Counted from the stretch's first letter, positions 25,945-41,294 are shown. The stretch: 64,000 nucleotides of DNA from Candidatus Woesearchaeota archaeon (GCA_016188175.1 JACPII010000002.1:4865-68864), one strand, 5' to 3'. The notes: generated from the sequence alone by a model not told the origin. Program-made: numbers and translations.

Positions 25945-26901
25945 ATGCTCAAAACCATCCTCTCGCTGAATCCGATAGTATTCCATTCCCTCATTGTCAT
26001 TGCAAGCCTCATCGTCCTTGCAAAATCAGCCCATTACATTGTCCTGGGCATCAGCAACTATGCAAGAAAAATCGGGGTTTCCGATTATTTGATTGGCCTC
26101 CTGGTCATTTCAGTCGGAACAGCAGTCCCCGAGCTTGTTGCATCGATCACCGGGGCATCCATCGGCCAGGGTGGCATTGTTTTTGGAACTATCCTTGGTT
26201 CGAGCCTGTTTAAGATACCCCTCCTCGGCCTCGTCCTGATTATCGCAAGAAAAGTGACCATTGACAGGGAAGTGAAAACTAACCCCCCGATTCTTTCTTT
26301 TGTCGGGACGATGCTCCCGTTTGCCCTCATTCTCGATGGGGTTCTTTCAAGGGCTGACGGGATTCTTCTGCTGATGGTGTTTCTCTGGTATTGTTACAGG
26401 CTCTGGACAGCAGAAAAAAAGTTCGGAAAGCTCAAGAGCAATGTCCCCTTCCGCATCATCTGGAAAGACGCATTGATCTTCCTCATCGCCCTTGCCGCGC
26501 TCCTGCTCTCCGCCCGGTGGCTTGTTTTTTCATCAATGGTCATGTCTGATTATTTCGGGATCTCCCCTTTCCTTGTCGGCCTGATTGTCATCGGCATCGG
26601 GGCATCTGCTCCCGAGCTCCTTGTCCAGATAACATCGATCAGGAAAAAGCACAACGACATCGCGTTTGGAAATGCAGTTGGTTCCTTGGTTGCAAATTCG
26701 GCATTTGCCCTGGGCATTGCCCCGCTCGTGAAGCCTATCGCCATCGAGCCTTTGTCCCTCCTCTCGACCGGCATTTTTTTCCTTCTTGGAACGGTCGCCG
26801 TCATCTACCTCATGGAAAGGAAGGAAGTGAATTGGAGGCATGGGATAGCGCTTATTCTGTTGTACATCACATTTTTAGGGATAGAACTTGCTGTCGGATA
26901 A
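25945..26901 (+). CDS. Ca2+/cation antiporter (CaCA family, YrbG/NCX-like)
   Basis: Two alpha-repeat motifs (GTAVPELVASITGA and GASAPELLVQITS). SD-like AAAGGAG 8 nt upstream of the ATG. Confidence 0.85.
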   Translation: MLKTILSLNPIVFHSLIVIASLIVLAKSAHYIVLGISNYARKIGVSDYLIGLLVISVGTAVPELVASITGASIGQGGIVFGTILGSSLFKIPLLGLVLIIARKVTIDREVKTNPPILSFVGTMLPFALILDGVLSRADGILLLMVFLWYCYRLWTAEKKFGKLKSNVPFRIIWKDALIFLIALAALLLSARWLVFSSMVMSDYFGISPFLVGLIVIGIGASAPELLVQITSIRKKHNDIAFGNAVGSLVANSAFALGIAPLVKPIAIEPLSLLSTGIFFLLGTVAVIYLMERKEVNWRHGIALILLYITFLGIELAVG

Positions 26902-26916
26902 CTGTTTGTAAACTGG

Positions 26917-28722
26917 TTACGGAACTGGTATCCCGAAGGGAACCATAGCAACATCCCTCAGGTCAATTGAAATTTCCAATGGACTCACAGAAATCCCATG
27001 TTTAATTGCAAATGGGGTTGGGTTGCCGAAAGGGGTTACTTCAAGTTTTCTTTCTAGTGAGCCTTTTATAAGGTCCAAAGGAAGTGCCAAGGTATCTCCT
27101 TGCTGATATATCTTTCCTGTCGAGGGAACCAGAATCCTTACTGGTGGCTTGATATATTTCTGAACTTCCTCATAAAACCCGGGAACAAAAGAAACATAAA
27201 CCCAGTCTCCTGAGATAGATGAATTTTCAATGATCCTATCGGTTAAGTCCACCTTTAACCAATAAAAGAAGTCCCCCCCTGAAGGTTCTCCCCTTGGAAA
27301 TGCTCGAAAAGCAACCCGGTGTCCATTGATATTTCCGATTGTTCCCGCAAGAGGAACGTCCCGGGTTATACCCCCCTCGCCCTTAAATGAAAAAATTCTC
27401 CTTTCCCAGTCAAAATATTGGAACACAACTTTACCAATGTCTTTTATATTATAGGTTGACCCTGCGGCAACCTCCCCCTGGGATTCAAACCCAGCCCTAA
27501 AATTATAGGGGTCACCTAATTTGAATAATCCTTCAGCAAATAATTTTAAAATGGCCCTCTTGTTCTCGACGGGCAAGCCGCCACTCGAAGCCCCTTCACT
27601 GCTCTCTGCCGGAATACCGGGTTGAGCGGGAATGGTATCCCTCCCCGGAATAAATGGGACTGATGGATAGCGGGGACTAGCGTCCCTTGGGGAAGATGAA
27701 CGGGAAGGGAAAGGGCCTGCTCTATTTCCAAGGTTACCAACAAAGTAGATAATCCCGCTCAACACGACAGCAGCCGTAACCCCATAACCTATGATCCGCG
27801 GAATCTTTGAACCTCGCCCTCCTTTAGCAAGAGGATACAAACCAGTCTTTGCTCGACTGCCATTTCCCCCCGGGGAAATTTCTGCAGGGAGATATAACCC
27901 TCGCCCATAATCGAGAACTGTCCCCCTAAAAATGGAAATATCTTCCAGGGCTAAAGGTTTTGCTGCCGTTCCAGTAAGAATAGAACCAACCTTTTCTTCG
28001 ATGGTCGCAGGCAAAAGATAGTTTGCGATCGAGGCAAGCTCTTTTTGTGATTTACCCAAATCAACTACAAGGTTACCCATCTCCTTTAGTTTTTCATGCT
28101 TGGCTCTTTCGTAACTCCCCCTTAAATGATTAACAACATCACCGCTTGCGGGTTTTCCAAAAAGCGATTTTGGAAGCACAAACGGTGCATCAATTACCCC
28201 CTCCAAATCAGAAATCCTTTCCTCAACTTTGCTTACATGCCTTCCAAGCTCCTGTCCACGCTCAAAATTTGTTCGCAGGCTTTCCTGATATTCGTAAAGT
28301 TGATGATAACCAGAAACAACCCCATCCAGATAATTATCCCCCGTTACAACCCGCCCGTCGGTCAGAAGGGTGATAAACGGGCTCGGAATTCTTTCCACGG
28401 AACAAATCTCCTGTGCGGAAAGTGTAATTCTCCCATCTGCATTTACAGGAACAAACACATAACTTTTTTCCAACTCATCCTCAAGAGAAATTATCCTGCA
28501 CCCTAATTCAACCGAGGTCAACTTGCTTCTCAAAAAATCCAGACCGATGGTTTTTGGCACCCCTAACCCCGGGGCGGCATATTCTTGTGAAAATGCCTGA
28601 TGAAATCTGTTCAACGCTTCCCGGGAGAGTGTTCCCTGGCGCGCATCCCCGGTTGTTCCGCCATCATCATGGAAAATCCCCCGAAAGGATTCCTTAAGAA
28701 TTTTGCTCGTTGTATTAACCAT
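26917..28722 (-). CDS. Hypothetical single-pass membrane protein (start taken at MVNTTSK, since a TATA box lies ~25 nt upstream; the longest ORF runs to 28830)
   Basis: ORF track. Central TM IIGYGVTAAVVLSGIIYFVGNL. Divergent from the methyltransferase gene. Confidence 0.55.
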   Translation of the reverse strand: MVNTTSKILKESFRGIFHDDGGTTGDARQGTLSREALNRFHQAFSQEYAAPGLGVPKTIGLDFLRSKLTSVELGCRIISLEDELEKSYVFVPVNADGRITLSAQEICSVERIPSPFITLLTDGRVVTGDNYLDGVVSGYHQLYEYQESLRTNFERGQELGRHVSKVEERISDLEGVIDAPFVLPKSLFGKPASGDVVNHLRGSYERAKHEKLKEMGNLVVDLGKSQKELASIANYLLPATIEEKVGSILTGTAAKPLALEDISIFRGTVLDYGRGLYLPAEISPGGNGSRAKTGLYPLAKGGRGSKIPRIIGYGVTAAVVLSGIIYFVGNLGNRAGPFPSRSSSPRDASPRYPSVPFIPGRDTIPAQPGIPAESSEGASSGGLPVENKRAILKLFAEGLFKLGDPYNFRAGFESQGEVAAGSTYNIKDIGKVVFQYFDWERRIFSFKGEGGITRDVPLAGTIGNINGHRVAFRAFPRGEPSGGDFFYWLKVDLTDRIIENSSISGDWVYVSFVPGFYEEVQKYIKPPVRILVPSTGKIYQQGDTLALPLDLIKGSLERKLEVTPFGNPTPFAIKHGISVSPLEISIDLRDVAMVPFGIPVP

Positions 28723-28814
28723 TAATAAGTAGTCAATTGCACCCCATTTAAAAACCTTTGGTAAGTTTAAACCCGCACACAACCTATAAAAGAAGCACCC
28801 AACCCACCAGCAGT

Positions 28815-29753
28815 ATGGACGACCCACCAACTTTCAAGCCAGGGTTTATCGGGCGCTATCAAAAACTTACCGATTGGGAAAAATTCAGGGAAATATCCCT
28901 CACCTACTTAAGGCGCTCCATCAGGGTAAACACCTTAAAAATCAATATCCCCGATCTAAAACGCCGCCTTGAAAAAAAAAGCTGGTTCCTGACACCGATC
29001 CCCTGGTGCAAAGAAGGGTTTTGGGTAGAGCATCAGGAAGGCCGGAGAGATATCGGGAACACCGTCGAACACCAGCTCGGCTATTATTTTGTCCAGGAAG
29101 CTGCTTCCATGATTCCGCCCCTGGTCCTTGATCCTCAGCCCGGAGAAATCAATCTTGATATGTGCGCTGCACCCGGAGCGAAGACATCACAAATCGCCCA
29201 ATTGATGAAAAACAAAGGCATTCTCATCGCCAATGATTACAAGGGAGAACGCCTCCAGCCGTTGGGAATTAACCTCCAGAAGATGGGCCTCACCAATGCA
29301 GTTATAACCCTTATGGAAGGAAGGTATTTCATAAAGTCAGGTATCCACTTTGACAGGGTTTTGGTCGACGCACCCTGTTCAGGCACAGGGAACATCCGCC
29401 GCTCCTACAAGACTATCCAGATCTGGAATCCTGACGCCATCAGGAGGCTGGCAGGCCAGCAGAAAACTTTGATCGAGACAGGATTCTCGATTCTGAAAGA
29501 GCAAGGCACCCTTGTCTATTCAACCTGCAGCCTCGAGCCCGAAGAAGACGAGGGCGTAATTGATTTCTTGTTGTCAAGGCACAAAAATGCAAGACTGGAA
29601 GAAGTAAATCTTCCTGGCTTGAAGAAAAGCCCGGCCATCCTTGAATTTGAAGGGAAAACCTACAATCCGGAAATAAGGAAATGCCTGCGCATCTGGCCCC
29701 AAGATAACGATACCGAAGGGTTTTTTGTTGCGAAGATTATAAAACATCAATAG
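28815..29753 (+). CDS. RNA (tRNA/rRNA) cytosine-C5 methyltransferase, NOL1/NOP2/Sun family
   Basis: SAM motif DMCAAPGAKT, catalytic DAPCSGTG and TCS. TATAAAAG 25 nt upstream of ATG 28815 (leaderless). Confidence 0.85.
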   Translation: MDDPPTFKPGFIGRYQKLTDWEKFREISLTYLRRSIRVNTLKINIPDLKRRLEKKSWFLTPIPWCKEGFWVEHQEGRRDIGNTVEHQLGYYFVQEAASMIPPLVLDPQPGEINLDMCAAPGAKTSQIAQLMKNKGILIANDYKGERLQPLGINLQKMGLTNAVITLMEGRYFIKSGIHFDRVLVDAPCSGTGNIRRSYKTIQIWNPDAIRRLAGQQKTLIETGFSILKEQGTLVYSTCSLEPEEDEGVIDFLLSRHKNARLEEVNLPGLKKSPAILEFEGKTYNPEIRKCLRIWPQDNDTEGFFVAKIIKHQ

Positions 29754-29763
29754 CAAAAAGAAC

Positions 29764-29995
29764 GTAATTAGTCAGGAGCCTGAAGTTTTGGTTTTGACAT
29801 TCCTATTTATCCGGTCGGGAAACCCAACAACAATGGCGAGGCGAGGTCGGGGCCGCCCTCCTCCTGCAAGGCAGGAACGCTAGATTCTCCTCCGTCCGAA
29901 GGACCGGGCTCACCCCTCCGGGGTGACCGAGCAGGGCAAATCCGAGCGAAGCGAGGATTTGACCGTCGAGCCCATTGTTGTTGTTGTTGGGTTTC
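29764..29995 (+). repeat. Repeat family E copy 1. Structured ~200 bp element with an internal TIR pair (CGGGAAACCCAACAACAATGGC / GCCATTGTTGTTGTTGTTGGGTTTC) and four internal hairpins. Left border of the island.
   Basis: 29764-29961 is ~95% identical to 41338-41543 in direct orientation. Confidence 0.8.
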
Positions 29996-30073
29996 TTGGT
30001 TAAGCCAATTCAGCCGGCTAACCTATTACAAAAGAACAATAACTATAAATATACTCAGCGATTACTTTTGACG

Positions 30074-30634
30074 ATGGAAAGGGGAGTAAGTGACCTTAAC
30101 ATTCTGGAAAAATTTGCCTTGGAATTTACACATATTGTTGAGCAATACGGCAGGTATATCATCGTATCCGGTTTTGTCGCTATCGTGCATGGGCGTTCCC
30201 GTGCTACGGAGGACATTGACATGATTCTGGAAAGGATAAGCAAGGAAAAGTTTGTCCAGCTCCACGCCCATCTTGAAAAAGAGGGATTTGAATGCATTCA
30301 GGGCGAAAATCCTGTGATGCTGTATGATGAATATCTTGCGCAAAATACCCCCCTTAGGTATATCAGGAAAGGAATGCCTTTGCCAGATATGGAGATCAAG
30401 CTTGCAAAAGATAAGCTGGATGAGCTGCAGTTGCAGGAACGCACAAAATTGCCGATGACAAACCTGCCTTTTTGGTTTTCCAGCATCGAAACCAATATTG
30501 CGTTCAAAGAAGAGTATCTGAAATCGCCGAAGGATTTGGAGGATGCAAGGCATCTCAGGGTGTTATACGAGGGCATTCTCAATGAAGAACAGATTAATAG
30601 ATGGAAAGTGCTGATCAAAAAGGTGAGGCTGTAA
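30074..30634 (+). CDS. Nucleotidyltransferase-fold protein (Pol-beta superfamily-like). Start taken at MERGVSDL. The longest ORF starts inside repeat E at 29975.
   Basis: YIIVSGFVAIVHGRSRATEDIDMIL resembles the NTase hG[GS]x9-13Dh[DE]h motif. Confidence 0.5.
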   Translation: MERGVSDLNILEKFALEFTHIVEQYGRYIIVSGFVAIVHGRSRATEDIDMILERISKEKFVQLHAHLEKEGFECIQGENPVMLYDEYLAQNTPLRYIRKGMPLPDMEIKLAKDKLDELQLQERTKLPMTNLPFWFSSIETNIAFKEEYLKSPKDLEDARHLRVLYEGILNEEQINRWKVLIKKVRL

Positions 30635-30925: not shown

Positions 30926-33900
30926 ATGCGAGTTTCATCCACTTCCCTCCTGTTGATTTCTGTCGGCTTCATCCTTGCCATTCCTTTTGCTTATAGCCCC
31001 GTAATCGAGAGGGGTGGCTGCAGCCTTACCCTCAACGCAATGGCTGACGACGTCATCTGGGTTACTTTAACGAGCGGAACGGATGGAAGCATTAAAGCTG
31101 AGGGAAATCCTGGAAGTACCGGCTCTGACAGGTTTGAAAACCCCTTCAAAGCAAACCCAGGAGATATTCTCAGGGTAAGGGCGATTGACACAAAGCCCTG
31201 TGGGGCAGGGTTTGGAAAGCCTATTGGCTTTGAGTCATGGGACATTTTTAAAACGAGATGGATGGGGTATGAGCCAGCAACCGTTGAAGCAGCTTCCCCC
31301 AAGACATTCCTTGAATCACCGATAATTCTACCTAATTCGCCTGTCGGCATGAAGGTTACCAAGAATGGCAAGGATATTATCGACTACAAGATACAAACAT
31401 ACTTTGATCCGAACGATAATAAATGGAAGTTTCCGGAAGGCTGCGGAACTCCTGGGTGGTATCCAGACCCCAAGGATTTTTCTGACCGCTATCAGCCAGT
31501 ATATAAAATAGTTGACTGGTATAGGCCAGACGTGGTTGTGAAGGGGGGATATTGGGGCGACGATGGGGCGTATCATGACCCCGTCATCGAGAGAAATCCT
31601 GCAAAGGGCTATGTCTTCTACGACAGCGGAAATATTGTCTTAAGCCATACGTGCAAATGCGAAAACATTGGCTCCAGCTTTCCCACAATCCAGGGAACAT
31701 CCTCAGGAATTCTCAATGGCAAGTTTGTTGAGCTTTATGACTACTGTACTGATGGGACAGTTGACCAGCTAACAGGATTTCCCTCTGAATTTGTGTTTGA
31801 TCTCAGCTCAGATAAATATATCCCTTCCTATTTTGATTCAGAGGCGCTTAAATGGCACCCCTCTCCAAACGGAATCGCCCGAGCAGAACTCACCCATGTT
31901 GCAAAGGGTTCTTGTTCGGAGGGAGAAACGGGGCCATTGGAGATTTCCGTAAAAGAATGCCCCCAAGGCTCAAAATGTGTGGCTGGCGCTTGTTCCTGCG
32001 GCGACAGCGACAGGAAGGGGAAATATTCTAGGATTGATGTAAAGGGCACCACAACGGGATTTGATTATGGAAAGGCCCTAACCCACACCGATTTTTGTGT
32101 AACTTTTTTCGGGGATGAACAAAACAAGGGGGCATTCTATCCCTATACGACAAATTTCAAGAGTGTCGAAATCCCCTGCCCGCCAGATGAGCCGGGAAAG
32201 GGGCCATGTTACAGGGTTGTTCCCCAGGAAAACAAGAATATGGATTTACCGTCATTTGAATCTCTGCAAAAGAAGTGGAGTTCAGGCGGGGATGCTGCCT
32301 ACCAGGGCATTATGAAACTGGCAACATACGATAATAGTGGAAACAATGTTGGAAATGCCGTCATTGAAGGCGATTGCGTATATGACAAATCAGTCAAACT
32401 GAGTATAGCTCCCTGCGCACAAAGCTGCAGGGATGGAGCCTGCGTTCCGTATGAGGGGGCTAAAGTGGATATCTATCCGGCAAGAGATGAAGGAAAAAAG
32501 CAGGAATCTGGCAAGGAAATATCAGAACCATCAATCAACGAAAGGGAAGCGATAGTCTGCAAGGCAACACTTTCAAACCCTCCAAAAAACATTTATGTGA
32601 ATGTTGTCAAAGAAATTGACGGAATAAAATCAGCCTATGTGGCAAGGGGAGTTCCCCCGCCCGGCTGCAAGATTAATCCAAATTCCGCTGAATGCAGGGG
32701 ATATGTCCAATGCAAGGAAACAAACGCAGGAGTCACTTGCGTATCTCTCATTGACCCAGTGGAAGGTTCTGGCTTCCCCTACCCCCAGGTCGAAAAGATG
32801 CCATTTGATTTTAACGGAAAAAAGTGGAACCAGAGAGCGCTTCTTTCATGCGAGGTGGAGGTTGATGGAAAAAAATACACTTCCCAAAACAAAGTTAGGG
32901 TGAGGGGGAATGAAAAGAATAAGGATTTTTACCCGCAAAAAAGTGTTTTCCTTGTCCCTTTTAACGGGCTGTACCACGACGTCCTCAGCATTCTCCCTGC
33001 AGCAATTTGGGAAGACAAACAAGACAGGTATTGGTGCTCTCACCCAAAAACATCGGACAATAAAGAAGTTGGTGATAAATGTTATTACCCATTTTTGGTA
33101 TATCAAAAGGAAGATTCATTATACGACATCGAAAGCATTCGCTATTTTATCAATCAGCAATACAACTCCCTTCCCCAGGGCTCCGATGTCACCATCTTTA
33201 GCATTGGAAAATTCCTTAGTGAGTCTGGGATTAACGCAAAGGAAGTAAAAGAACTCTCTCCTTCTGACGTGTTGAACGAAAACTACTTTTGGAAGGAATT
33301 CTCAACCGTTGTTGTAGCCAATCTTGACCCCATTTCCTACAATGAAGCAATTTTGGGAGCTCAGCTTGCCTCCTACCTAAACGCCCCACTGATGTTCGCA
33401 TCGGACAGGGCAACCGCCACGTGGATAAATCTCTTCAAAAACCCTTCCAAAAAATATAGTGTGGTCCTCATGCCAGGCGTCGAACAGGGAGTGATTGACG
33501 ATATTGCAAAAAATGGCCATTTCTTGGTGAAATATGAAAATGGAGATTTTTCATATAACGATGGAAAACCTGAGCAAACCTTCAAACAGGAGGAAGATGT
33601 CCAGAAAGCATTACAGATCCACAAGCGGATTGACAAAATAATAATCGCCAACCCCTCCGACAAGCTATCCGCTTTCTGCGAGAACAATCTTCCCTTCCAA
33701 GGCCTTCCTGCCCTGAAAGAGTGGTATTGCCGAACATCGTTATCTGCCCCTATCCTCGCAGCAGGAAGGGATTGGCTGCCCACATTTGTTTATACGACAA
33801 GGTCAGCCCCAGGAATTTTCTTTTCCTCAGAAAGCAAGCAACAGGGATCAGGAACAAGGGAGGGAGGAGAAAAAGGAGCAGGCCAGGCCGAAACAGGTTC

Positions 33901-36900
33901 AACGAAGGCCGATGCAGCCTCCCAAGCACCAGCCCTTTCTCCGCCATCTAACCCGGAAGAGGAGATTGTCTCAATTGCAAAAAAACAAATTCAACCCCAG
34001 GTAGCTTCTATCTTAAGCTCATTTAAGCCAAAGTACGCCTTATTCCTTGCAGCGCCTAAAGCCATCCCGCTTAGCAAAATGAAAGGAAGTGATGGCCTCC
34101 AACGCTTATCACTGGACCGCTCCTATGTTGACCTAAATTTTGACGGGAAGGAAGACATCCCATTCGGAAGGCTCTATACAAAAACGATAACGGGAACTTC
34201 AGTGTACATGAATAGGATACTCTCAAACACCCAGCAGGAAAAGAATACATTTCTCTCTGTTGCGCACTCTTTCGAAGACCTCCAGACTCATTTTGACACA
34301 TTGGACATGCAGCTTCCATCCATGGGATACGACGAGGCTGACTGTTATCTCGCTTTTGATCCTTTAGGGAGATGCCAAAAAGGGGTTCCCCCCTCACCCT
34401 ACGACCCATACCAAGAAAAAAAAATAATATATTACGATGACCACGGAAGTTCCGACCAATGGAGCTCGACAATCCCCGCAAAGGATATTCCGCAATTGAG
34501 TTCCTCCCTCGTTATCTCAGATGCCTGCCTCACCAACGATTATTATAACTCCCCCGACGGGTATGTTTTTGGACCGGAAGCAATCGAAAAGGGAGCCCTT
34601 TCCTATCTGGGGGGTGTGGGAACTACTGCTGCCCGGGAAGGCCACATCCTGCAATCCGGAATTGGAGAAGATTTATTCAGGCTCGTTGTCAGCGAGAGAA
34701 ACCTTGACCTAGGCACTGCCCTCCAAGAGCTTTACCGGGGACTGACACCTGTAAGCAGCGACTACCTCCTCCTCGGTGACCCAACATTTACCCCATCCAT
34801 CCCAAGATTTTCATATCCTTATATTGTTAGACATGACCTCCAGGATAACCCAACATTGGGCTCCTCATTCTCTTTCCAGGTGTCAGACCAAGATGGGCCA
34901 GATAACGTTGGAGACATTAAGGTTCTCATCACAAGAAAAGAGGATAATGTCGTAAAAGAGGTCGCCCCAAAGTGCGAAAAGAGAAGCGACCATTGGTCCT
35001 GCACGATGGCATTCGATGATCTGTCTCTCATGCAAAAGGACCTTCTCGTGGAGATGAGGGCATATGACAAGAAAAACGAAAAATACGGTGCCGTCTACAA
35101 AGATGTTAAAAAAATCAAAGTTATTGAAATATCGGTCGTTGAATGCCGAATGGAGACTTCAGGCGTTGAGGGAACATGCACCGCGCATATCAAGGTTCAA
35201 AAGGACAATATCGGGGAGGTCAAATTCACCAAGCTTGAGGGGGGAATAATAAATCCCCCTTATCCAGAAAATAAAGGATGCGCATGGTCGAATAATAACC
35301 ACGAGTACCTCTGTAAGTTCACGTTTACCCCAGAAGACCCCGGGGATTACAAGATAAAGGTTGATGCAGAAACAAAATCTGTTGACGATGCTGGCAAGCC
35401 ATTTTCGGACGATGAAACGACGACATTCCGGGCATCCCCCATTGATGTCGCCAGGTATAGTTGCACAGAGTCCTTAGACCATCAAAAATGGGATTGTAAA
35501 TTAGATGTTAAGGCCAAAAAAGGGGACTTGGGCAAAGCAACGCTATCCAGCATTTCTGGGCCAGCAATTGCCCCACCAGAGCCTCAAGGAGGCTGCGTAT
35601 GGAACGAGGAAAGGGGATTAAATGTCTGCACATTCCTGTTTACCTTTCCAAAAGTTGGAAAGTATTCCCTCGTGTTTTCTGCATTCACCAATTCAATCGA
35701 TCCCAAGGACGGGAAGCCGTTCTTTGATTTTGAATATTTTGAAAAAGACCTCAACCCGATAAAGATTTCGTGGATAGAATGTTCCACTCCCAATATCGAC
35801 CAAGAGATTGTTTGCACAACCACCATGTACGTTGACCCAGCACAATGGGGGGATGCAGGGTTCTCTATTTTAGAAGGGGGGCCATATGAGCCGACACCAC
35901 TTACAACAAACTGTAAACAGGAGGGTCAAGAAAAGATAGAAGTTGTATTAAAGCCGAAGGTTAAATGCGAGACGAAATTTACTCCAAAAAGTGCTGGAAC
36001 CTACCGAATTGAGATGAAAGTGTCCACCAAACCGGCCGATGGAACCCAACCCCTAACGGGTACAGTGGAGACCACCCTAAACGTTAAAGCTATAAAAATG
36101 ACAGATATTGATTGTGGAGAATCAGTTATCGGAGCTGTTACCAAATGCATGGTCAACATTCTCGCCCCTAAAAACACATTGGGAACAGTTACCCTGGGGG
36201 CAGAGAAGGGATTTATTGACCCGGGCTCTGTTCTCGTCGAATGCCAATGGGACGGTAATAAATTTTATGACTGCGAATTCGAATTTACCCCCGGACAGGA
36301 AGGCGCACTTCTCATAAAAGTAGCCGCCGCTTCACTTTTAACAGACTCAAATAACAACCCCTATTCAGCTGAGGCCGAAAAACAGATTAATGTCGGGAAC
36401 ATCAAGATTAAGATTACCTCATGGAGCATAGTTGTTTTGGGAGTAAAAGGAAGGTTGTATTTCAAGGTTAAGGCCAAAAAAGATTCCTTTGACAGAGCAA
36501 TTTTGGAGAGGAAAGGCGGGGCAGAAGTTGATATCCCCGCTCCACAGGCGCAATGCGAATGGAATGAAGAACGGGCATTATTCACATGCAAAGCTGAATT
36601 TGTTCCCAAAGCTATAGGCTCCACCACCCTCCAGGCCACCGCATACCTAAAAGAGCCGGCAAGTAACCCTGCCGCCGCTACAGTCTCCCTTTTTGATAAA
36701 ATATCCGCATTGCAATGGGGTTTCCCTGGATGCAATCCAGCAATTATAGGAAGGAATGTTATATGTTCAATCGAGATATATTCATCCAAGGAGCTATTTA
36801 ACGGATTGACAATAAAAAAAGAAAGCGGGCCGGAGGTCGAAATTCCAGATGCGCCATCCTGCTTATGGAGGGAGCAACCCCAGCGGTTTGAATGCAAGTA

Positions 36901-37048
36901 CAGTTTTACCCCAAAAGGAACGGGAAAATTAAAGTTAGTGTTGACTGCAGAAATTCATCCCCCGGGAGGCAGCCCCATAAAGGTGAGCAAATCTCTTGAT
37001 TTCGAGCCGTTATCCATTATTAAAGATGATACCGAGGTAAAGCCATGA
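30926..37048 (+). CDS. Giant secreted/cell-surface protein (2040 aa). N-terminal signal peptide, Cys-rich N-terminal region, a clan CD (gingipain C25-like) cysteine peptidase core around residues 1150-1300 (HGSSDQW ... SDAC ... LLGDPT), a low-complexity linker, and six C-terminal ~105-aa Ig-like repeats with motif C-x-W-x5-7-C-x-F-x-F-x-P.
   Basis: ORF track. Signal peptide MRVSSTSLLLISVGFILAIPFAYS. TATA TTTTTATAAGG ~25 nt upstream (leaderless). Motif comparison from memory. Confidence 0.85.
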   Translation: MRVSSTSLLLISVGFILAIPFAYSPVIERGGCSLTLNAMADDVIWVTLTSGTDGSIKAEGNPGSTGSDRFENPFKANPGDILRVRAIDTKPCGAGFGKPIGFESWDIFKTRWMGYEPATVEAASPKTFLESPIILPNSPVGMKVTKNGKDIIDYKIQTYFDPNDNKWKFPEGCGTPGWYPDPKDFSDRYQPVYKIVDWYRPDVVVKGGYWGDDGAYHDPVIERNPAKGYVFYDSGNIVLSHTCKCENIGSSFPTIQGTSSGILNGKFVELYDYCTDGTVDQLTGFPSEFVFDLSSDKYIPSYFDSEALKWHPSPNGIARAELTHVAKGSCSEGETGPLEISVKECPQGSKCVAGACSCGDSDRKGKYSRIDVKGTTTGFDYGKALTHTDFCVTFFGDEQNKGAFYPYTTNFKSVEIPCPPDEPGKGPCYRVVPQENKNMDLPSFESLQKKWSSGGDAAYQGIMKLATYDNSGNNVGNAVIEGDCVYDKSVKLSIAPCAQSCRDGACVPYEGAKVDIYPARDEGKKQESGKEISEPSINEREAIVCKATLSNPPKNIYVNVVKEIDGIKSAYVARGVPPPGCKINPNSAECRGYVQCKETNAGVTCVSLIDPVEGSGFPYPQVEKMPFDFNGKKWNQRALLSCEVEVDGKKYTSQNKVRVRGNEKNKDFYPQKSVFLVPFNGLYHDVLSILPAAIWEDKQDRYWCSHPKTSDNKEVGDKCYYPFLVYQKEDSLYDIESIRYFINQQYNSLPQGSDVTIFSIGKFLSESGINAKEVKELSPSDVLNENYFWKEFSTVVVANLDPISYNEAILGAQLASYLNAPLMFASDRATATWINLFKNPSKKYSVVLMPGVEQGVIDDIAKNGHFLVKYENGDFSYNDGKPEQTFKQEEDVQKALQIHKRIDKIIIANPSDKLSAFCENNLPFQGLPALKEWYCRTSLSAPILAAGRDWLPTFVYTTRSAPGIFFSSESKQQGSGTREGGEKGAGQAETGSTKADAASQAPALSPPSNPEEEIVSIAKKQIQPQVASILSSFKPKYALFLAAPKAIPLSKMKGSDGLQRLSLDRSYVDLNFDGKEDIPFGRLYTKTITGTSVYMNRILSNTQQEKNTFLSVAHSFEDLQTHFDTLDMQLPSMGYDEADCYLAFDPLGRCQKGVPPSPYDPYQEKKIIYYDDHGSSDQWSSTIPAKDIPQLSSSLVISDACLTNDYYNSPDGYVFGPEAIEKGALSYLGGVGTTAAREGHILQSGIGEDLFRLVVSERNLDLGTALQELYRGLTPVSSDYLLLGDPTFTPSIPRFSYPYIVRHDLQDNPTLGSSFSFQVSDQDGPDNVGDIKVLITRKEDNVVKEVAPKCEKRSDHWSCTMAFDDLSLMQKDLLVEMRAYDKKNEKYGAVYKDVKKIKVIEISVVECRMETSGVEGTCTAHIKVQKDNIGEVKFTKLEGGIINPPYPENKGCAWSNNNHEYLCKFTFTPEDPGDYKIKVDAETKSVDDAGKPFSDDETTTFRASPIDVARYSCTESLDHQKWDCKLDVKAKKGDLGKATLSSISGPAIAPPEPQGGCVWNEERGLNVCTFLFTFPKVGKYSLVFSAFTNSIDPKDGKPFFDFEYFEKDLNPIKISWIECSTPNIDQEIVCTTTMYVDPAQWGDAGFSILEGGPYEPTPLTTNCKQEGQEKIEVVLKPKVKCETKFTPKSAGTYRIEMKVSTKPADGTQPLTGTVETTLNVKAIKMTDIDCGESVIGAVTKCMVNILAPKNTLGTVTLGAEKGFIDPGSVLVECQWDGNKFYDCEFEFTPGQEGALLIKVAAASLLTDSNNNPYSAEAEKQINVGNIKIKITSWSIVVLGVKGRLYFKVKAKKDSFDRAILERKGGAEVDIPAPQAQCEWNEERALFTCKAEFVPKAIGSTTLQATAYLKEPASNPAAATVSLFDKISALQWGFPGCNPAIIGRNVICSIEIYSSKELFNGLTIKKESGPEVEIPDAPSCLWREQPQRFECKYSFTPKGTGKLKLVLTAEIHPPGGSPIKVSKSLDFEPLSIIKDDTEVKP

Positions 37049-37944
37049 AAAGGGGAACATTCCTGTTTTTCGTCGTTGTAGAAATACTGCTCACTGCCGG
37101 AATCGCCTCTTCAAATCTGGAAACTTACATTTCAAGCCCTGATTTGGATTATGAGCCTGGAGAGACAATCGAAATAAAGGCGTTTATCGAAAACCCCACA
37201 AGCCAGACAAGAGACCTCACCATCGAGACAGATATTGAGTTTCCAAACAGGGAGCACTCCGGTAAGCCTATCCCGGAACCTGTAACTCTGGAACCTGGCA
37301 GATACCGCATAATAACCCATTCCCTCCGCGTAGAGCCAACCTATCCATCAGGGGAATATATTTTCCGATTGAAGATAGTTGAAGGAGAAAATATTATCAA
37401 AACGGAATCCTATTCCGTTGAGGTAAAAAATACCCTCTCAACGTTTAAACAGACATCATTCCAGTTCTGCCTGACAGCTGATTGCTCAGCTCCCCTCCCC
37501 GCCAGTGTTGGCAGGCTCCCCCTCACAGCCGAACCCATCACCCTTCAGGCAATTGGATGGGAAAGCCCCGTACTATCAGGGACAGTGACAGCCCCAGACC
37601 AGCAAACAACCCCTCTGGTTTTTTCCGGACAAAATGCGGAAATTATTTTTTCCGAAGATGGGCCCTACCGGATTGAGATTACTGCATCGAAAGAAAAATA
37701 CCAGGAATATATTAAAGTGATTGACCTCGAGATATATCGCGGTGATGTAAAGATCGAATATCTCAGAGCCTGCTCCGCAGATGGAATCTGCAAAGATGGC
37801 GAAAACCCAGGAAACTGCCCACAGGACTGTGTGCCGGCAGAAGGGCTTGAAAGCGAGTTCATAGAGACTGCAAAACAATGGCTCTTTGGTCAAACAATTC
37901 TTCAAAGGATGATTAGCCTTCTGGCGAGCATTTGGAAACCTTGA
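37045..37944 (+). CDS. Secreted hypothetical protein (signal peptide, Cys-rich C-terminus), translationally coupled to the giant gene (ATGA overlap)
   Basis: ORF track. MKRGTFLFFVVVEILLTAGIASS signal. Confidence 0.7.
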   Translation: MKRGTFLFFVVVEILLTAGIASSNLETYISSPDLDYEPGETIEIKAFIENPTSQTRDLTIETDIEFPNREHSGKPIPEPVTLEPGRYRIITHSLRVEPTYPSGEYIFRLKIVEGENIIKTESYSVEVKNTLSTFKQTSFQFCLTADCSAPLPASVGRLPLTAEPITLQAIGWESPVLSGTVTAPDQQTTPLVFSGQNAEIIFSEDGPYRIEITASKEKYQEYIKVIDLEIYRGDVKIEYLRACSADGICKDGENPGNCPQDCVPAEGLESEFIETAKQWLFGQTILQRMISLLASIWKP

Positions 37945-38030
37945 TCTTATTGGAGATTCATCCAGATTATGCCCCCATCTTCTCTCCCGCGCCCCCTATT
38001 TCTTTTTTCTCGCCACCCAGCCATTCGATA

Positions 38031-39299
38031 TCACAAAGCCTTTTTCCATAAACTGCTGGGCCGGTGCAAAATATCCTCGCAATCCCTGAATACCCTGCGA
38101 GTATGCTCCATTGAAAAAGGAACATCCGGATCAATAGCGTCCCGGACATCCAGAGCCGGCCATAAGCCGACGGAAGTGAGTTGGTTGGCCCTTCCAAAAA
38201 AGATTTGGCTTGGGCTTGGCCTTTCAACCCAGGAATCACCAAGCGTCCGATGGAGGGACGCATACCAATCAGCAAACCGGCGTACCCGCGCAAAGTCAAA
38301 ATACTGGAGCATCCCGAGCTTTTCCAAAAGGCACCTGATTTCCACCCTTTCCAGATAAGCCCCCCGATTGACAACATACAAAGTTTCAGAGTTCATCAGC
38401 CACCCTATCGCCATAAGGGTGTTTTTCGCAAGGGGATCGCGGGGAACAAGAGTTTTCCCTGTTTGGACAACCTCAAGCCCGTATCTTCCCGGTTTTTGCC
38501 TGACGATGGCATCTGCACTCCGCACAGGCTCGAATTGCAATGGAAACGGTTTGCTTTTCCCAAACGCGCACCTAAATGCTTCCTCATAACCATTCTTGAC
38601 AAGAAAATGTTCACCCCTCCGGGCGAGAGCGTCAATTTGCTCATAACGGTCCCGTTTACCGGTGATTAAGAAAACTCCAACAATATCCAGGAACCCCTGC
38701 GGAGTTGAAAGATTGGCTGAACCTGCTATTCGCAACGGAGAATTCCCGCAAACACTATAATTAAATGCCCCCCACTGAGTGACCTCAGTTTCAGTGCTCA
38801 TATCATCGGAAGCCGCCGCCATAACCTCATCCAGCCCAGCAAGCGCAGCATCCGCTTTCTGAGACTTTGCTGCAAGAACTCTCTCGTCAGATGGCGCCCC
38901 CCTGATAAAGGCAGGGATGCCATCAACCTCAACCGAAAGCTCAGAAAAACCGCCCCTGTATTTTCCTGAATGGTTGGGATCAGGATAAATGCCGAGAGCC
39001 CCACGTGCTTCATCAGGAACTCCAGAAAGGCTGCTTCTTGCCCTGTCAAAATAGGGGCTCATAAATTCCCTTGAGCCAACGACCGCCTCAGAGATGAGGG
39101 GAAGCCTTGGATCATTGGTGACCGCATACAATCTATCAAAAAAAGAAGTAAATGCCCTTCCCCACGGAGGGATAAGCAGTGTGATGGGTTCCCGATTCAT
39201 ATCCAAGGAGAACCCGAAATGGTTTATAAACCTGATGAGGGGAATCCGCAAATAAGAAATGACCTTAATCCGCCCGAACAACCATAAGGGCATTGCCAA
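38031..39299 (-). CDS. Hypothetical protein (422 aa), island gene
   Basis: ORF track only, no recognizable motif. Confidence 0.55.
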   Translation of the reverse strand: MAMPLWLFGRIKVISYLRIPLIRFINHFGFSLDMNREPITLLIPPWGRAFTSFFDRLYAVTNDPRLPLISEAVVGSREFMSPYFDRARSSLSGVPDEARGALGIYPDPNHSGKYRGGFSELSVEVDGIPAFIRGAPSDERVLAAKSQKADAALAGLDEVMAAASDDMSTETEVTQWGAFNYSVCGNSPLRIAGSANLSTPQGFLDIVGVFLITGKRDRYEQIDALARRGEHFLVKNGYEEAFRCAFGKSKPFPLQFEPVRSADAIVRQKPGRYGLEVVQTGKTLVPRDPLAKNTLMAIGWLMNSETLYVVNRGAYLERVEIRCLLEKLGMLQYFDFARVRRFADWYASLHRTLGDSWVERPSPSQIFFGRANQLTSVGLWPALDVRDAIDPDVPFSMEHTRRVFRDCEDILHRPSSLWKKAL

Positions 39300-39377
39300 A
39301 ATACGAAATAAGCTGACACTTTTGTAGGTGTGGTAGGTTATGTCAAAATGGGTATTCCGAAAAAAATGTATCCCTTT

Positions 39378-39923
39378 TTATCTGCAGCACTCGCAGCTTT
39401 CCTTCCAGCATGCAGTGATCAAGGAATTATCTTTCTCCCCGGAAGAGATAAAGCGGCCCTTCCACTCCCTCGCTTTCCCTATGCAGGCAGAAAACGCGCA
39501 GGAACGAAGCTGCTGGGTTCCCTCCCCCGGAACCAAACACGTATCAGGAACCGGCCAGAATGCGCTGTCGGGCGGAGAGCCAAAACCCGCTGAGCATTTG
39601 TCTGCATCCCAATCTGGAGGAAAAAAACGCTCCCCCACCGTTTCCTCAGTAATCAGCGCTCCCGATGAGCCTTTAGCTTCATCCCAAGCCCATTCGGACG
39701 TGAACGAATATAATTCAAGAGCCGTCGCCCTTCCAACGGTTTGAACACTCCCAAACACAAGATAGGCAAGCAGCCAAACCCCAATTACTGCCGAGAATAT
39801 TGCAATGACCACATCAAGCTCCTTGGGAAGCTTATGATGGACAAGATGCTTTTTTACCATAGCCTGATATTTGAATGCTGATTTATTAAGGTTTCTAGGT
39901 TTTGTAGAAGGTTTAGTATGCAC
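39378..39923 (-). CDS. Hypothetical membrane-anchored Cys-rich protein
   Basis: ORF track. TM helix DVVIAIFSAVIGVWLLAYLVF. C-terminal CxC and CC clusters. Confidence 0.5.
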   Translation of the reverse strand: MHTKPSTKPRNLNKSAFKYQAMVKKHLVHHKLPKELDVVIAIFSAVIGVWLLAYLVFGSVQTVGRATALELYSFTSEWAWDEAKGSSGALITEETVGERFFPPDWDADKCSAGFGSPPDSAFWPVPDTCLVPGEGTQQLRSCAFSACIGKAREWKGRFISSGEKDNSLITACWKESCECCR

Positions 39924-40055
39924 ATACTAGGTTTACCCAAGTTCAAGCTGAGCCATAATAAATGTAGGATAGGTATAAACCAAAACTGATGGGATTATAA
40001 ACAACTGCTGGCTAAAGAGCCTACAAAGTTCTATCCTATCCCGAGCCTAAAAAGA

Positions 40056-41294
40056 TCACTTGGGGGGCTGTTGCCGGCTTAATTCAATCTTTAATTGTTC
40101 GTCACTCATCGGACGAATGGTGACATAGTGCGCCGTAGCTATCACTTTGCATGTAGGTTCAGGAGAAAGGATAAAAGGAACCGAGAGGTCAAGGACAAAT
40201 CTTCCCGGACCCAATGGCCTTAAATCTGTATCATGCTGCTCAACACCGACAGTTTTTGCCATATTTGGCGCATATATGGTATAGATGGAGAGTACATCTT
40301 CCTTAGTTGCCCCAGTCACAGGAATCTGAAGGAGCCATGAAATGACCTCGCCGATGGTCAATGTTGTGGTATAGTCTTCATTAGTACCGCAGGGCATAAG
40401 GAGAGCATGGCCCCCTCCACTCATAAGACGGAAAAAATCAGCCTTGCAGTATTGCTCAAGAAGACTCCTGCCAAGAATAAATGATGAAGGCTTGTTCTGT
40501 CCAAGAGCTTGAGAGTTTCCAAGGGAATAAATGATTAACCTGTCCAAACGTGGGCCGCGATAGCTCTTCAAAAACTCAAAAATTCCCAGTGGGTTGGGAA
40601 ATGTTTCAAAACGAACATTATCAAAATCCAAGTTTACCCTTCTTCCCAGAAGGAGCCGGTCTATTCCTGAACTGTCGGTAAAGTCTGGATTGACGACTGC
40701 ATTTCTCTTTGCAAGAGTGTACGCCAATGGTTCCTGAAATTCGAGATTGTCAGGAATTCCCATTTCGGGAGTAAATTTGACTCTCCAATGTGTTGTTGAA
40801 AGATCTGAGAATTCCCCAACCAGGAGGCACATGACGTTAAATCTATACCTTGCAGGGTCAATTTCTTTTACAGGAACGGTAAGTATCTCCTGTCTTCGTG
40901 GTTTTTCCCACTGCTCATAGGGAATAGTAGTGCAGCCAGAGCCGGCCAAACACCAGTACAAAGCAGCAATGCCAATGCCAGTTGATGATCGATTTATAGG
41001 TGATGGCTCTGATGATGAATTTGATGATGATGGGTTTGATGATGACAGCCCCGTTGGTAGCGGTCCCCTCGAAGCGTAAGGCGCTGGAGTTCCATAAAGG
41101 GAGATAGTAGAAGGGGTAGGTAGGTAAGTTTTTGAACCACTTTTTGTTAGAGCATCCTTAGCCTTTTTACCCCCGGGGGGGCTTGAGAGCCGCCTCTTTG
41201 ATTTGTTTCCCAAACTCCCGGAAAAGGATTCTCGCCTTACACCTCCGGCATTCCGGAAGTGCTGGTGAACAAATGTTTGGCTGCGGTGATTCAT
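40056..41294 (-). CDS. Hypothetical protein with a Ser/Pro-rich ~100-aa N-terminus followed by a hydrophobic segment plus lipobox-like LAGSGC
   Basis: ORF track. TATA ~30 nt upstream of ATG 41294, adjacent to repeat E2. Confidence 0.55.
   Translation of the reverse strand: MNHRSQTFVHQHFRNAGGVRRESFSGSLGNKSKRRLSSPPGGKKAKDALTKSGSKTYLPTPSTISLYGTPAPYASRGPLPTGLSSSNPSSSNSSSEPSPINRSSTGIGIAALYWCLAGSGCTTIPYEQWEKPRRQEILTVPVKEIDPARYRFNVMCLLVGEFSDLSTTHWRVKFTPEMGIPDNLEFQEPLAYTLAKRNAVVNPDFTDSSGIDRLLLGRRVNLDFDNVRFETFPNPLGIFEFLKSYRGPRLDRLIIYSLGNSQALGQNKPSSFILGRSLLEQYCKADFFRLMSGGGHALLMPCGTNEDYTTTLTIGEVISWLLQIPVTGATKEDVLSIYTIYAPNMAKTVGVEQHDTDLRPLGPGRFVLDLSVPFILSPEPTCKVIATAHYVTIRPMSDEQLKIELSRQQPPK

What the first reader, a model, noticed from the sequence alone, without database searches (positions are those of the whole stretch)
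30926..37048. Giant secreted protein combining a gingipain-like peptidase core with six novel Cys-motif Ig-like repeats
The 2040-aa ORF has a signal peptide but no C-terminal TM or sorting tag. Around residues 1150-1300 it shows the clan CD His/Cys dyad context (YYDDHGSSDQW, then LVISDACLTN, then LLGDPTF) typical of C25 gingipain-type peptidases. After a Gly/Ser/Glu/Ala-rich linker, the C-terminal ~650 aa are six tandem ~105-aa units. Each unit carries C-x-W-x5-7-C-x-F-x-F-x-P (for example GCAWSNNNHEYLCKFTFTP, GGCVWNEERGLNVCTFLFTFP, ECQWDGNKFYDCEFEFTP, QCEWNEERALFTCKAEFVP, SCLWREQPQRFECKYSFTP) plus a second upstream Cys pair. I do not recognize this domain type. The downstream gene overlaps by ATGA, implying a two-protein secreted complex.
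Basis: partly seen in the sequence, partly recalled or inferred. Interest (0 to 1): 0.7.

Follow-up and report, generated by a model that had tools for sequence, protein, structure and literature searches.

The report
Giant archaeal gingipain-like surface protease
A 2,040-residue secreted protein of a tiny DPANN (Woesearchaeota-like) archaeon carries an intact gingipain-type cysteine protease followed by seven immunoglobulin-like modules. It is encoded next to a conserved small surface partner protein, so it is a plausible but untested host-interaction tool built from known parts, not a new kind of molecule.

Summary
ORF 30926-37048 encodes 2,040 aa with an N-terminal signal-like segment and no other hydrophobic anchor. 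The stated His/Cys motifs and six ~105-aa Cys-motif repeats are present, and the next gene overlaps by ATGA.

The peptidase call is right. Pfam Peptidase_C25 scores above its cutoff. A family profile hits only gingipains R and K in the PDB, aligned on the catalytic His and Cys. His1173 and Cys1201 are conserved in about 95% of 148 aligned relatives. The AF2 model finds clan CD folds (separase, CHAT).

The host is a Woesearchaeota-like DPANN archaeon, and the family consists of unannotated DPANN 'hypothetical proteins'.

New here: the downstream partner gene is conserved directly after the protease gene in eight independent loci. In six of them it has a C-terminal membrane anchor, but not in this window.

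Most likely this is a surface-displayed cysteine endopeptidase, docked by its partner, acting on extracellular or host envelope proteins. Its function is inferred only. It is a new variant of a known kind, of moderate interest.

The parts
30926..37048 (+). Gene for the 2,040-aa secreted C25-type protein (whole ORF including stop)
   Evidence: Homologues P0001 (55% identity), P0002 (41%) and P0003 (33%).
30926..30997 (+). Signal-peptide-like N-terminus (aa 1-24), the only strongly hydrophobic segment
   Evidence: Hydropathy scan. Orthologues have equivalent N-termini. No signal-peptide predictor was available, so the cleavage site is inferred.
30998..32887 (+). Variable Cys-rich N-terminal region (aa 25-654; 24 Cys, 3.9%), no recognisable family
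   Evidence: No Pfam hit. Only P0001 shares short stretches. Cys count.
32888..33823 (+). Family-conserved pre-catalytic region (aa 655-966), possibly CWB2/Rossmann-like modules
   Evidence: aa ~655-830 is conserved in about 35 of 150 relatives. CW_binding_2 hits below the Pfam cutoff recur at the equivalent place in 5 of 9 relatives, best 23.6 bits against a cutoff of 24.9.
33824..33964 (+). Low-complexity Gly/Ser/Glu/Ala/Pro linker (aa ~967-1013), an insertion found only here and in P0001
33965..34795 (+). C25 (gingipain-type, clan CD) catalytic domain, aa ~1014-1290
   Evidence: Pfam PF01364 E 8e-9, 35.6 bits, cutoff 23, aa 1061-1288. Family profile against the PDB hits 1cvr at 2.6e-6 and 4tkx/4rbm at 5e-6. 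AF2 pLDDT 70.5, pTM 0.75. Foldseek top hits are separase and the CHAT protein DdvA.
34442..34444 (+). Codon of predicted catalytic His1173 (DDHGSS)
   Evidence: His in 140 of 148 aligned relatives and the following Gly in 144 of 148. Aligns to RgpB GHGSETAW, His211.
34526..34528 (+). Codon of predicted catalytic Cys1201 (SDACLTN)
   Evidence: Cys in 143 of 148 aligned relatives. Aligns to RgpB VACVN, Cys244.
34796..35113 (+). Module U0 (aa 1291-1396), a probable Ig-like domain directly after the catalytic domain, at the position of the gingipain IgSF domain (from prior knowledge)
   Evidence: Conserved in P0001-P0003. Only weak similarity to the repeats, E 0.09. No structure was predicted, so this is an inference.
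35114..37045 (+). Six tandem Ig-like repeats U1-U6. Nucleotide ranges: 35114-35431, 35432-35749, 35750-36082, 36083-36397, 36398-36700, 36701-37045.
37045..37944 (+). Partner gene (299 aa), overlapping the protease gene by ATGA. It encodes a signal peptide, beta-sandwich domains and a C-x2-DG-x-C...NCPxDC motif.
   Evidence: Homologues lie directly downstream of the C25 gene in L081/L084, L082/L085, L086, L087, L088, L089 and L090.

Best explanation
The gene encodes a Sec-exported, catalytically competent clan CD / family C25 (gingipain-type) cysteine endopeptidase of a Woesearchaeota-like DPANN archaeon.

**Domain order**
- A variable Cys-rich N-terminal region, probably the target-recognition part.
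- A family-conserved pre-catalytic region, possibly CWB2-like.
- The C25 catalytic domain with His1173 and Cys1201.
- A proximal Ig-like module followed by six disulfide-stapled Ig-like repeats, which act as a rigid spacer or adhesion stalk.

**How it is proposed to work**
- The protein has no anchor of its own.
- It is co-expressed with a small beta-sandwich partner, with tightly packed or overlapping reading frames.
- In six of the eight loci that partner is a type-I membrane protein. It most likely docks the protease at the cell surface.
- There the protease cleaves extracellular proteins. For an organism of this lifestyle, those are most plausibly host envelope or S-layer proteins, or environmental proteins used as an amino-acid supply.

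**Shown versus inferred**
- Shown: the gene, domain identities, dyad conservation, the Ig fold of the repeats, and conservation of the gene pair.
- Inferred: export, disulfide formation, the physical complex, catalytic activity and the substrate.
For: **Identity as a C25 peptidase**
- Pfam Peptidase_C25 is above its cutoff in the query and in relatives.
- A family profile hits only gingipain R and K in PDB sequences, in register with His211 and Cys244.
- His, Gly, Cys and the GDP motif are conserved in 140-144 of 148 aligned relatives.
- The AF2 model (pLDDT 70.5) gives separase and a CHAT protein, both clan CD, as top Foldseek hits.

**Repeats**
- Pairwise homology between units.
- A confident 7-strand sandwich.
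- Cys pairs sit opposite each other in the A-B and D-E hairpins.

**Extracellular location**
- An N-terminal signal-like segment, no other hydrophobic segment, and 2.7% Cys against 1.2% in the other window proteins.

**Partner**
- A homologue lies immediately downstream of the C25 gene in eight loci, whose protease genes are only 25-41% identical to this one.
- Six partners have a C-terminal transmembrane helix plus a basic tail.

**Organism**
- Split RpoB, an intron-containing tRNA, and RpoA' up to 76% identical to Woesearchaeota genomes.
- Relatives come from Aenigmarchaeota genomes and a 0.1-0.22 um ocean size fraction.

**Background**
- Extracellular archaeal C25 peptidases are known and expressed in sediments (PMC6461988).
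- DPANN giant Ig-rich surface proteins have been proposed as host-binding devices (PMC10266531).
Against: - There are no activity, expression or localisation data.
- The peptidase model is only moderately confident, and gingipain itself is not among the top 50 Foldseek hits.
- The Pfam match starts at profile position 104, so the N-terminal subdomain of C25 is not recognised.
- The residue at the putative S1 specificity position is not conserved, so substrate preference is unknown.
- The partner in this window lacks the transmembrane anchor seen elsewhere: its C-terminus reaches a maximum hydropathy of 1.01 and no frameshifted anchor exists. The docking model is therefore weakest for this very locus.
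- One orthologue (P0003) has Arg in place of the catalytic His, so some members may not be enzymes.
Confidence: 0.55

Rival explanations
1. PorU-like role. The C25 domain would act as a sortase-type transpeptidase or processing peptidase. It would mature or attach other surface proteins of the archaeon itself, possibly the partner, rather than degrade foreign proteins.
For: - PorU is a C25-family member that works as a sortase (prior knowledge).
- The strictly adjacent, conserved partner gene could be its dedicated substrate.
Against: - The family profile retrieves gingipains R and K but not PorU from PDB sequences at E up to 1.
- No T9SS-type C-terminal domain or other recognisable sorting signal appears in the Pfam or NCBIfam results for the protease or partner.
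- The huge variable N-terminal region and the stalk are hard to explain for a housekeeping maturase.
Confidence: 0.12
2. Mainly an adhesin or structural envelope protein. The C25 domain would serve as a binding module or be inactive, and the Ig-like array and Cys-rich head would mediate attachment to the host.
For: - About two thirds of the protein is non-catalytic beta-rich or Cys-rich sequence.
- The number of Ig repeats varies between relatives: six here, two in P0002 and P0003, and none in the first C25 gene of locus L087.
- P0003 has lost the catalytic His.
- DPANN giant Ig-rich proteins have been proposed to bind hosts.
Against: - His1173, Gly1174, Cys1201 and the GDP motif are intact here and in about 95% of relatives, which argues for selection on catalysis.
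- Adhesion and catalysis are not mutually exclusive.
Confidence: 0.2
3. A general scavenging protease released into the environment for amino-acid acquisition, as proposed for sediment archaeal C25 enzymes, with no specific host-interaction role.
For: - Archaeal extracellular C25 genes are common and transcribed in sediments (PMC6461988).
- The protease has no anchor, and in this window the partner also lacks a transmembrane helix.
Against: - The conserved pairing with a membrane-anchored partner in six other loci points to a cell-associated enzyme.
- So do the possible CWB2-like modules, although those hits are below the Pfam cutoff.
- A 2,040-aa, seven-Ig architecture is costly for a freely diffusing digestive enzyme in a genome of about 1 Mb.
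Confidence: 0.13

Closest known systems
Gingipains RgpB and Kgp of Porphyromonas gingivalis (MEROPS C25, clan CD; PDB 1cvr, 4rbm, 4tkx)
   Same: - Same family by sequence.
- Same His-Gly...Cys dyad motifs (GHGSETAW / VACVN against DDHGSSDQW / SDACLTN) and the same C-terminal GDP motif.
- A beta-sandwich module directly follows the catalytic domain.
- Both are secreted.
   Different: - The host is an archaeon, and there is no T9SS C-terminal sorting domain.
- The N-terminal subdomain of the catalytic domain is not recognisable.
- A 47-residue low-complexity insertion sits inside the module.
- About 650 aa of unrelated Cys-rich N-terminal sequence.
- Six extra Cys-stapled Ig repeats instead of haemagglutinin/adhesin domains.
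- A dedicated downstream partner gene.
- Specificity is unknown.
Extracellular C25 peptidases of sediment archaea (Thermoprofundales/MBG-D; PMC6461988)
   Same: Archaeal, predicted extracellular, family C25, often fused to Ig/PKD-type domains.
   Different: - Those are assigned to free-living protein degraders.
- This one belongs to a DPANN-specific clade with a conserved pre-catalytic region and a partner gene.
- No direct sequence comparison with those proteins was possible here.
PorU (T9SS sortase, C25 family; PDB 6za2)
   Same: A large multidomain C25 protein with Ig-like domains that acts at the cell surface together with partner proteins.
   Different: - It was not retrieved by the family profile.
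- There is no T9SS context.
- No evidence of transpeptidation.
Giant Ig-rich surface proteins of DPANN archaea (SPEARE-type, Nanohaloarchaeota; PMC10266531)
   Same: DPANN origin, tandem Ig-like domains, large size relative to the genome, and a proposed role at the host interface.
   Different: - SPEARE-type proteins are 5,900-9,400 aa, membrane-anchored, and carry a VirB4/TraG-like ATPase.
- This protein is 2,040 aa, has no anchor of its own, and carries a cysteine peptidase.
- No homology between the two was detected.
Filamin/ABP280 repeat (Pfam PF00630) and generic Ig-like domains
   Same: - Seven-strand Ig-like sandwich of about 100 aa in tandem arrays.
- Weak sequence signal to filamin.
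   Different: - Single units score below the Pfam cutoff.
- Two intra-hairpin Cys pairs (A-B and D-E) replace the canonical B-F pair.
- The C-x-W...C-x-F-x-F-x-P signature is specific to this small clade.

Membership tests
Peptidase family C25 (gingipain), MEROPS clan CD | Significant match to the family profile (Pfam PF01364) above the curated cutoff | tested here: met
   35.6 bits against a cutoff of 23, E 8e-9, aa 1061-1288 matching profile positions 104-372 of 374. Also above the cutoff in 5 of 8 and 6 of 9 relatives scanned; two lines are shown but list no or a sub-cutoff stretch.
Peptidase family C25 (gingipain), MEROPS clan CD | Catalytic dyad in clan CD order (His-Gly ... Ala/Ser-Cys), alignable to gingipain His211 and Cys244 | tested here: met
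   His1173-Gly1174 and Cys1201 are present. They are conserved in 140, 144 and 143 of 148 aligned relatives. The profile alignment to 1cvr and 4tkx puts them on GHGSETAW and VACVN/NCCIT.
Peptidase family C25 (gingipain), MEROPS clan CD | Caspase/haemoglobinase-type alpha/beta fold | tested here: met
   The AF2 model with a 21-sequence alignment has pLDDT 70.5 and pTM 0.75. Foldseek against the PDB gives separase (E 6.4e-4, TM 0.48) and the CHAT protein DdvA as top hits. Caveats: model confidence is moderate, and gingipain is not in the top 50.
Peptidase family C25 (gingipain), MEROPS clan CD | N-terminal subdomain of the catalytic domain (profile positions 1-103) | tested here: inconclusive
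   The Pfam match starts at profile position 104. The region upstream of the linker (aa 845-966) is conserved in the family, and relatives give only CW_binding_2 hits below the cutoff. No structure was predicted for it.
Peptidase family C25 (gingipain), MEROPS clan CD | Type IX secretion C-terminal sorting domain (a feature of the Bacteroidota members, not of the whole family) | tested here: not met
   No such domain appears in the Pfam or NCBIfam scans. The C-terminus is the last Ig repeat. The organism is an archaeon.
Peptidase family C25 (gingipain), MEROPS clan CD | Endopeptidase activity with Arg-X or Lys-X specificity | not testable with these tools
   The column aligned to RgpB Asp163 is variable in the family, so no inference is possible.
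Filamin/ABP280 repeat (PF00630) | Profile match above the cutoff for the individual repeat units | tested here: inconclusive
   The whole protein scores 30.9 bits against a cutoff of 26.9. Unit 1 alone scores 19.6 bits, and only 2 of 6 units match at all. The repeat profile hits filamin-A (2j3s) at E 5.9e-4.
Ig-like beta-sandwich fold | Seven-strand two-sheet sandwich superimposable on Ig domains | tested here: met
PorU-type C25 sortase | Sequence relationship closer to PorU, in a T9SS context | tested here: not met
   PorU (6za2) was not retrieved by the family profile at E up to 1, and the genome is archaeal.
SPEARE-type DPANN giant proteins | More than 5,000 aa, membrane-anchored, with a VirB4/TraG-like ATPase domain (PMC10266531) | tested here: not met
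   The protein is 2,040 aa, has no transmembrane segment beyond the signal peptide, and has no ATPase domain in Pfam.
CWB2 cell-wall-binding domain (PF04122) | Profile match above the cutoff in the pre-catalytic region | tested here: inconclusive
   There is no hit in the window protein. Five of nine relatives, plus P0008, give hits of 14.6-23.6 bits, all below the cutoff of 24.9.

The most novel reading that the evidence does not exclude
The C25 protease and its anchor partner form a DPANN-specific, modular host-envelope-breaching device.

- The membrane-anchored partner would hold a stalked cysteine protease.
- The variable Cys-rich head would recognise a particular host.
- The catalytic domain would cut the host S-layer or envelope proteins to open the cell-cell contact through which the symbiont feeds.
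- The number of Ig repeats would set the reach of the device.
- The near-total absence of N-glycosylation sequons would reflect a need to keep the device unglycosylated.
Probability: 0.15. Interest if true: 0.75.

Novelty: new variant of a known kind. Interest (0 to 1): 0.42.

Why it matters
How DPANN archaea attach to their hosts and extract nutrients from them is largely unknown, and almost none are cultured.

This locus defines a recurrent two-gene cassette that is currently annotated only as 'hypothetical protein':
- an anchor-less gingipain-type protease with an Ig stalk;
- a small, usually membrane-anchored partner.

The representative search gave 228 hits at E <= 0.001, most of them to the C25 domain. 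The relatives whose source was checked are DPANN.

The cassette gives a concrete, testable candidate for a surface effector. The active-site residues are defined, the domains are expressible, and a binding partner is predicted.

The repeat also adds a small Ig-like subfamily with an unusual double hairpin-disulfide pattern.

If the protein turns out to be an ordinary scavenging protease, the value is mainly better annotation.

Tried and rejected
**Searches that found nothing**
- The word-indexed homologue search found nothing with the full protein or with a 14-unit repeat profile. The exhaustive representative search, by contrast, found 228 relatives. The negatives therefore reflect the tool, not absence of relatives.
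- Exact look-ups of the window proteins and of P0001 failed.
- The scan of species-representative genomes with the giant protein found no relative.

**Domain hypotheses not supported**
- A single-sequence search against the PDB gave nothing.

**Inferences dropped**
- I tried to infer S1 specificity from the column aligned to RgpB Asp163. That column is not conserved, so I dropped it.
- I looked for a frameshifted or downstream transmembrane anchor for the window's partner. None exists.
- I tested whether the partner's domains are homologous to the repeats. They are not: hhalign probability is 4%.
- GC content is uniform at 0.43-0.51 across the region, so an anomalous-composition island is rejected.
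- The window holds no second copy of the repeat or of the C25 domain.
- The ORF upstream (29975-30634) is not detectably related to the DUF6036 gene at 45922-46425.


Full report
**1. The observation**

The ORF at 30926-37048 (+) is real and encodes 2,040 aa. A hydropathy scan finds a single strongly hydrophobic segment, at aa 1-28. It has the n-h-c layout of a Sec signal peptide, and nothing comparable exists at the C-terminus.

The three quoted peptidase motifs are present, at aa 1169 (His1173), 1197 (Cys1201) and 1282.

The C-terminal 644 aa split into six units of 101-115 aa. These are demonstrably homologous: pairwise BLASTP E-values reach 2e-14 at 21-38% identity. An HMM built from these same units scores them 115-139 bits each and matches nowhere else in the six-frame translation of the window.

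Unit 3 lacks the Trp and has a longer loop. Unit 5 lacks the upstream pair.

The next gene (37045-37944) starts with the ATG of an ATGA overlap.

One descriptive error needs correcting. The Gly/Ser/Glu/Ala-rich linker lies at aa ~967-1013, upstream of the catalytic His and Cys, not between the peptidase and the repeats. Between the peptidase and the six repeats there is instead a seventh, divergent beta-rich module, U0 (aa 1291-1396).

**2. The organism**

The window encodes split RpoB, RpoA' and other archaeal informational genes. It also holds a 95-nt tRNA found by Rfam but not by ARAGORN, consistent with an intron.

RpoA' is at most 76% identical to any species-representative genome, and the best matches are Woesearchaeota/Nanoarchaeota genomes. 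So this is a DPANN archaeon with no close sequenced relative in that collection. GC content is uniform across the locus.

**3. The peptidase**

- Pfam Peptidase_C25 matches aa 1061-1288 with 35.6 bits against a cutoff of 23.
- An exhaustive HMMER search of 1.84 billion representative proteins with aa 841-2040 returned 228 relatives at E <= 1e-3, and 70 at E <= 1e-10. Most align only to aa ~1030-1295.
- In an alignment of the best 150, His1173 is conserved in 140 of 148 sequences, Gly1174 in 144, Cys1201 in 143, and the GDP motif in nearly all.
- Relatives also pass the Pfam C25 cutoff.
- A profile of 21 family members retrieves gingipain R (1cvr, 4ief) and Lys-gingipain (4tkx, 4rbm) as the only significant PDB sequences, at E 2.6e-6 to 6.4e-6. 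The family's DHG...W and AC-T motifs align on the gingipain catalytic His and Cys.
- An AF2 model of aa 1020-1300 built with that alignment has pLDDT 70.5 and pTM 0.75. Its best Foldseek matches are separases and the CHAT-domain protein DdvA, both clan CD. Gingipain itself is not in the top 50, which I attribute to the moderate quality of the model.

Membership of family C25 is therefore supported by sequence. The clan CD fold is supported by structure prediction. Substrate specificity cannot be inferred, because the column aligned to RgpB Asp163 is variable.

**4. The rest of the conserved core**

Region aa ~655-830 recurs upstream of the C25 domain in about 35 of the 150 relatives. Several relatives give CW_binding_2 hits there, all below the Pfam cutoff. 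That assignment is only a lead.

The N-terminal aa 25-654 is Cys-rich (24 Cys). It is shared only in patches, and only with the closest relative. I read that as a variable recognition head, by inference.

**5. The repeats**

- An AF2 model of unit 1, using the six units as its alignment, is confident (pLDDT 90.9) and shows seven strands.
- Foldseek finds no close solved relative, with TM of 0.55 or less.
- At the sequence level there is a faint filamin-repeat signal. Pfam Filamin scores 30.9 bits on the whole protein but only 19.6 on one unit. The repeat profile hits filamin-A at E 5.9e-4.
- In 14 units from five proteins the second Cys pair is invariant and the first is present in 12.
- In the model, Cys56 and Cys67 lie exactly opposite each other in the D-E hairpin, and Cys11 and Cys22 lie nearly opposite in the A-B hairpin (strand limits). 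Two intra-hairpin disulfides per unit are therefore plausible. This differs from the canonical B-F Ig disulfide. I could not inspect coordinates, so it is an inference.
- Among the 150 best relatives, the repeat HMM matches only P0001-P0004, P0007 and P0017.
- The orthologues P0002 and P0003 have two units where this protein has six. One relative ends right after the GDP motif with no Ig tail at all.

So the repeats are a rare sequence subfamily of an ordinary fold, and the array is expanded in this lineage.

**6. The partner gene (the main new result)**

The contig of P0002 shows a downstream gene that also overlaps by 4 nt, and its product is 31% identical to the window's 299-aa protein, at E 2e-33.

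The same holds, with gaps of 0-2 nt, in the loci of P0003 and in L087, L088 and L089. A partner profile also hits the gene immediately downstream in the more distant loci L086 (E 2.6e-41) and L090 (E 2.8e-16).

That makes eight independent loci, counting the window. The seven others are L081/L084, L082/L085, L086, L087, L088, L089 and L090. The protease genes in those seven are only 25-41% identical to this one.

The partners share these features:
- a signal peptide;
- one or two beta-sandwich domains, with a weak RbmA-like signal;
- a C-x2-DG-x-C...NCPxDC motif;
- in six loci, a C-terminal transmembrane helix followed by a basic tail.

The window's own partner ends instead in a weakly amphipathic segment, with maximum hydropathy of 1.01, and no frameshifted anchor exists. 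The partner has no Pfam family and is not homologous to the repeats.

**7. Interpretation**

The best-supported reading is a secreted, active C25 cysteine endopeptidase held at the cell surface. The partner would do most of the holding, with the pre-catalytic region possibly contributing, and an Ig-like stalk provides the spacer.

Given the DPANN lifestyle, the likely substrates are host envelope proteins or environmental proteins. This step is inferred. It rests on background about extracellular archaeal C25 enzymes (PMC6461988) and about Ig-rich giant DPANN surface proteins (PMC10266531).

There are three rivals:
- a PorU-like maturase or sortase;
- a mainly adhesive or structural protein;
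- a freely released scavenging protease.

None is excluded. The near-universal conservation of the dyad argues against a purely structural role. The anchored partner argues against a freely diffusing enzyme. The lack of any PorU signal makes the sortase idea the weakest.

**8. Novelty and score**

Every part is of a known kind: a C25 peptidase, an Ig-like fold, and large DPANN surface proteins.

What is new is the combination and the conserved two-gene cassette in a family annotated only as hypothetical proteins, plus a small Cys-stapled Ig subfamily. No paper describing DPANN C25 proteins was found in three literature searches.

I rate it a new variant of a known kind, with interest 0.42.

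**9. Side observation**

The giant protein contains no N-x-S/T sequon at all. Shuffling gives an expectation of 11.4 +/- 3.1, and none of 2,000 shuffles reached zero. The reversed motif occurs 14 times.

The other window proteins as a whole show no depletion (64 observed, 65 expected). However, the membrane and secreted ones also have zero. These are the P-type ATPase, the Na/Ca exchanger, the beta-propeller protein and the partner. A small surface-type ORF at 347-1033 has 15 sequons.

Several close homologues are likewise nearly sequon-free. Across all 150 relatives the effect is heterogeneous, with a median observed/expected ratio of 0.53. This remains unexplained.

Noticed in passing
window 30926-37048; compared with all other window ORFs and with P0001-P0150: The 2,040-aa protein has zero N-x-S/T glycosylation sequons. 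Shuffling predicts 11.4 +/- 3.1, and none of 2,000 shuffles reached zero; the reversed motif occurs 14 times. Other window proteins together show 64 observed against 65 expected. The membrane and secreted ones (22994-25798, 25945-26901, 37045-37944, 46485-48689) also have none. Homologues P0001, P0007 and P0009 have 0, and P0003 has 1 against 13.6 expected. Across the 150 relatives the median observed/expected ratio is 0.53, and partners in other loci are not depleted. This suggests lineage-specific selection against N-glycosylation of these exposed proteins.
   Followed up: partly
window 347-1033 (-): A 228-aa ORF with Ig/PKD-like repeats carries 15 N-x-S/T sequons against 5.8 expected. It is probably a heavily N-glycosylated surface protein of the same organism, in sharp contrast to the sequon-free giant.
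   Followed up: no
window 12429-12523 (+): Rfam finds a 95-nt tRNA (47.2 bits) that ARAGORN misses. This is consistent with an intron-containing archaeal tRNA.
   Followed up: no
window 41646-44402 (+): This is a methionyl-tRNA synthetase of 918 aa. Its C-terminal extension carries a B3_4 domain, which is normally found in the PheRS beta subunit, plus a tRNA_bind domain. That is an unusual fusion.
   Followed up: no
window 26917-28830 (-), 38031-39299 (-), 39378-39923 (-), 40056-41294 (-): Four long ORFs flank the cassette. None has a Pfam match, and some are rich in low-complexity Ser/Pro sequence. The 3.7 kb from 37945 to 41645 thus holds no recognisable gene. Whether these ORFs are real genes is unknown.
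   Followed up: no
P0003 / locus L082 952-4521: In this 33%-identical orthologue the catalytic His is replaced by Arg (FFGVGRGIGY), while the Cys is kept. It is a possible pseudo-enzyme, and it still keeps the partner gene.
   Followed up: partly
L087 2-1285, 1290-2222, 2242-4986; P0008 and P0016 on one Aenigmarchaeota contig: The family can be multi-copy. L087 has a C25 gene, then the partner, then a second C25 gene in tandem. Two relatives carry neighbouring locus tags (JW754_05300 and JW754_05315) on one 41.7-kb contig.
   Followed up: partly
L088 14343-18146 (contig of 1.19 Mb): Here the partner is expanded to 1,267 aa. It has partner-type domains plus Dockerin_1, Laminin_G_3 and NosD/beta-helix domains and a C-terminal transmembrane anchor. 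A dockerin-like motif is also visible by eye in the L082 partner, and a Dockerin_1 hit occurs in relative P0078. This hints at dockerin-type assembly in some members.
   Followed up: no
window 45335-46425 (+): This is an overlapping gene pair. The second gene is a DUF6036/DUF2204 nucleotidyltransferase, so the pair is probably a toxin-antitoxin-like module. The ORF just upstream of the giant gene (29975-30634) resembles it only around a short G-x-x-x-x-G...DID motif and is not significantly similar.
   Followed up: partly
tools: The word-indexed homologue search returned nothing for this family, even when sequences from the same collection were in the query alignment. The exhaustive representative search found 228 relatives. 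A 'no homologues' result from the former should not be taken at face value.
   Followed up: yes
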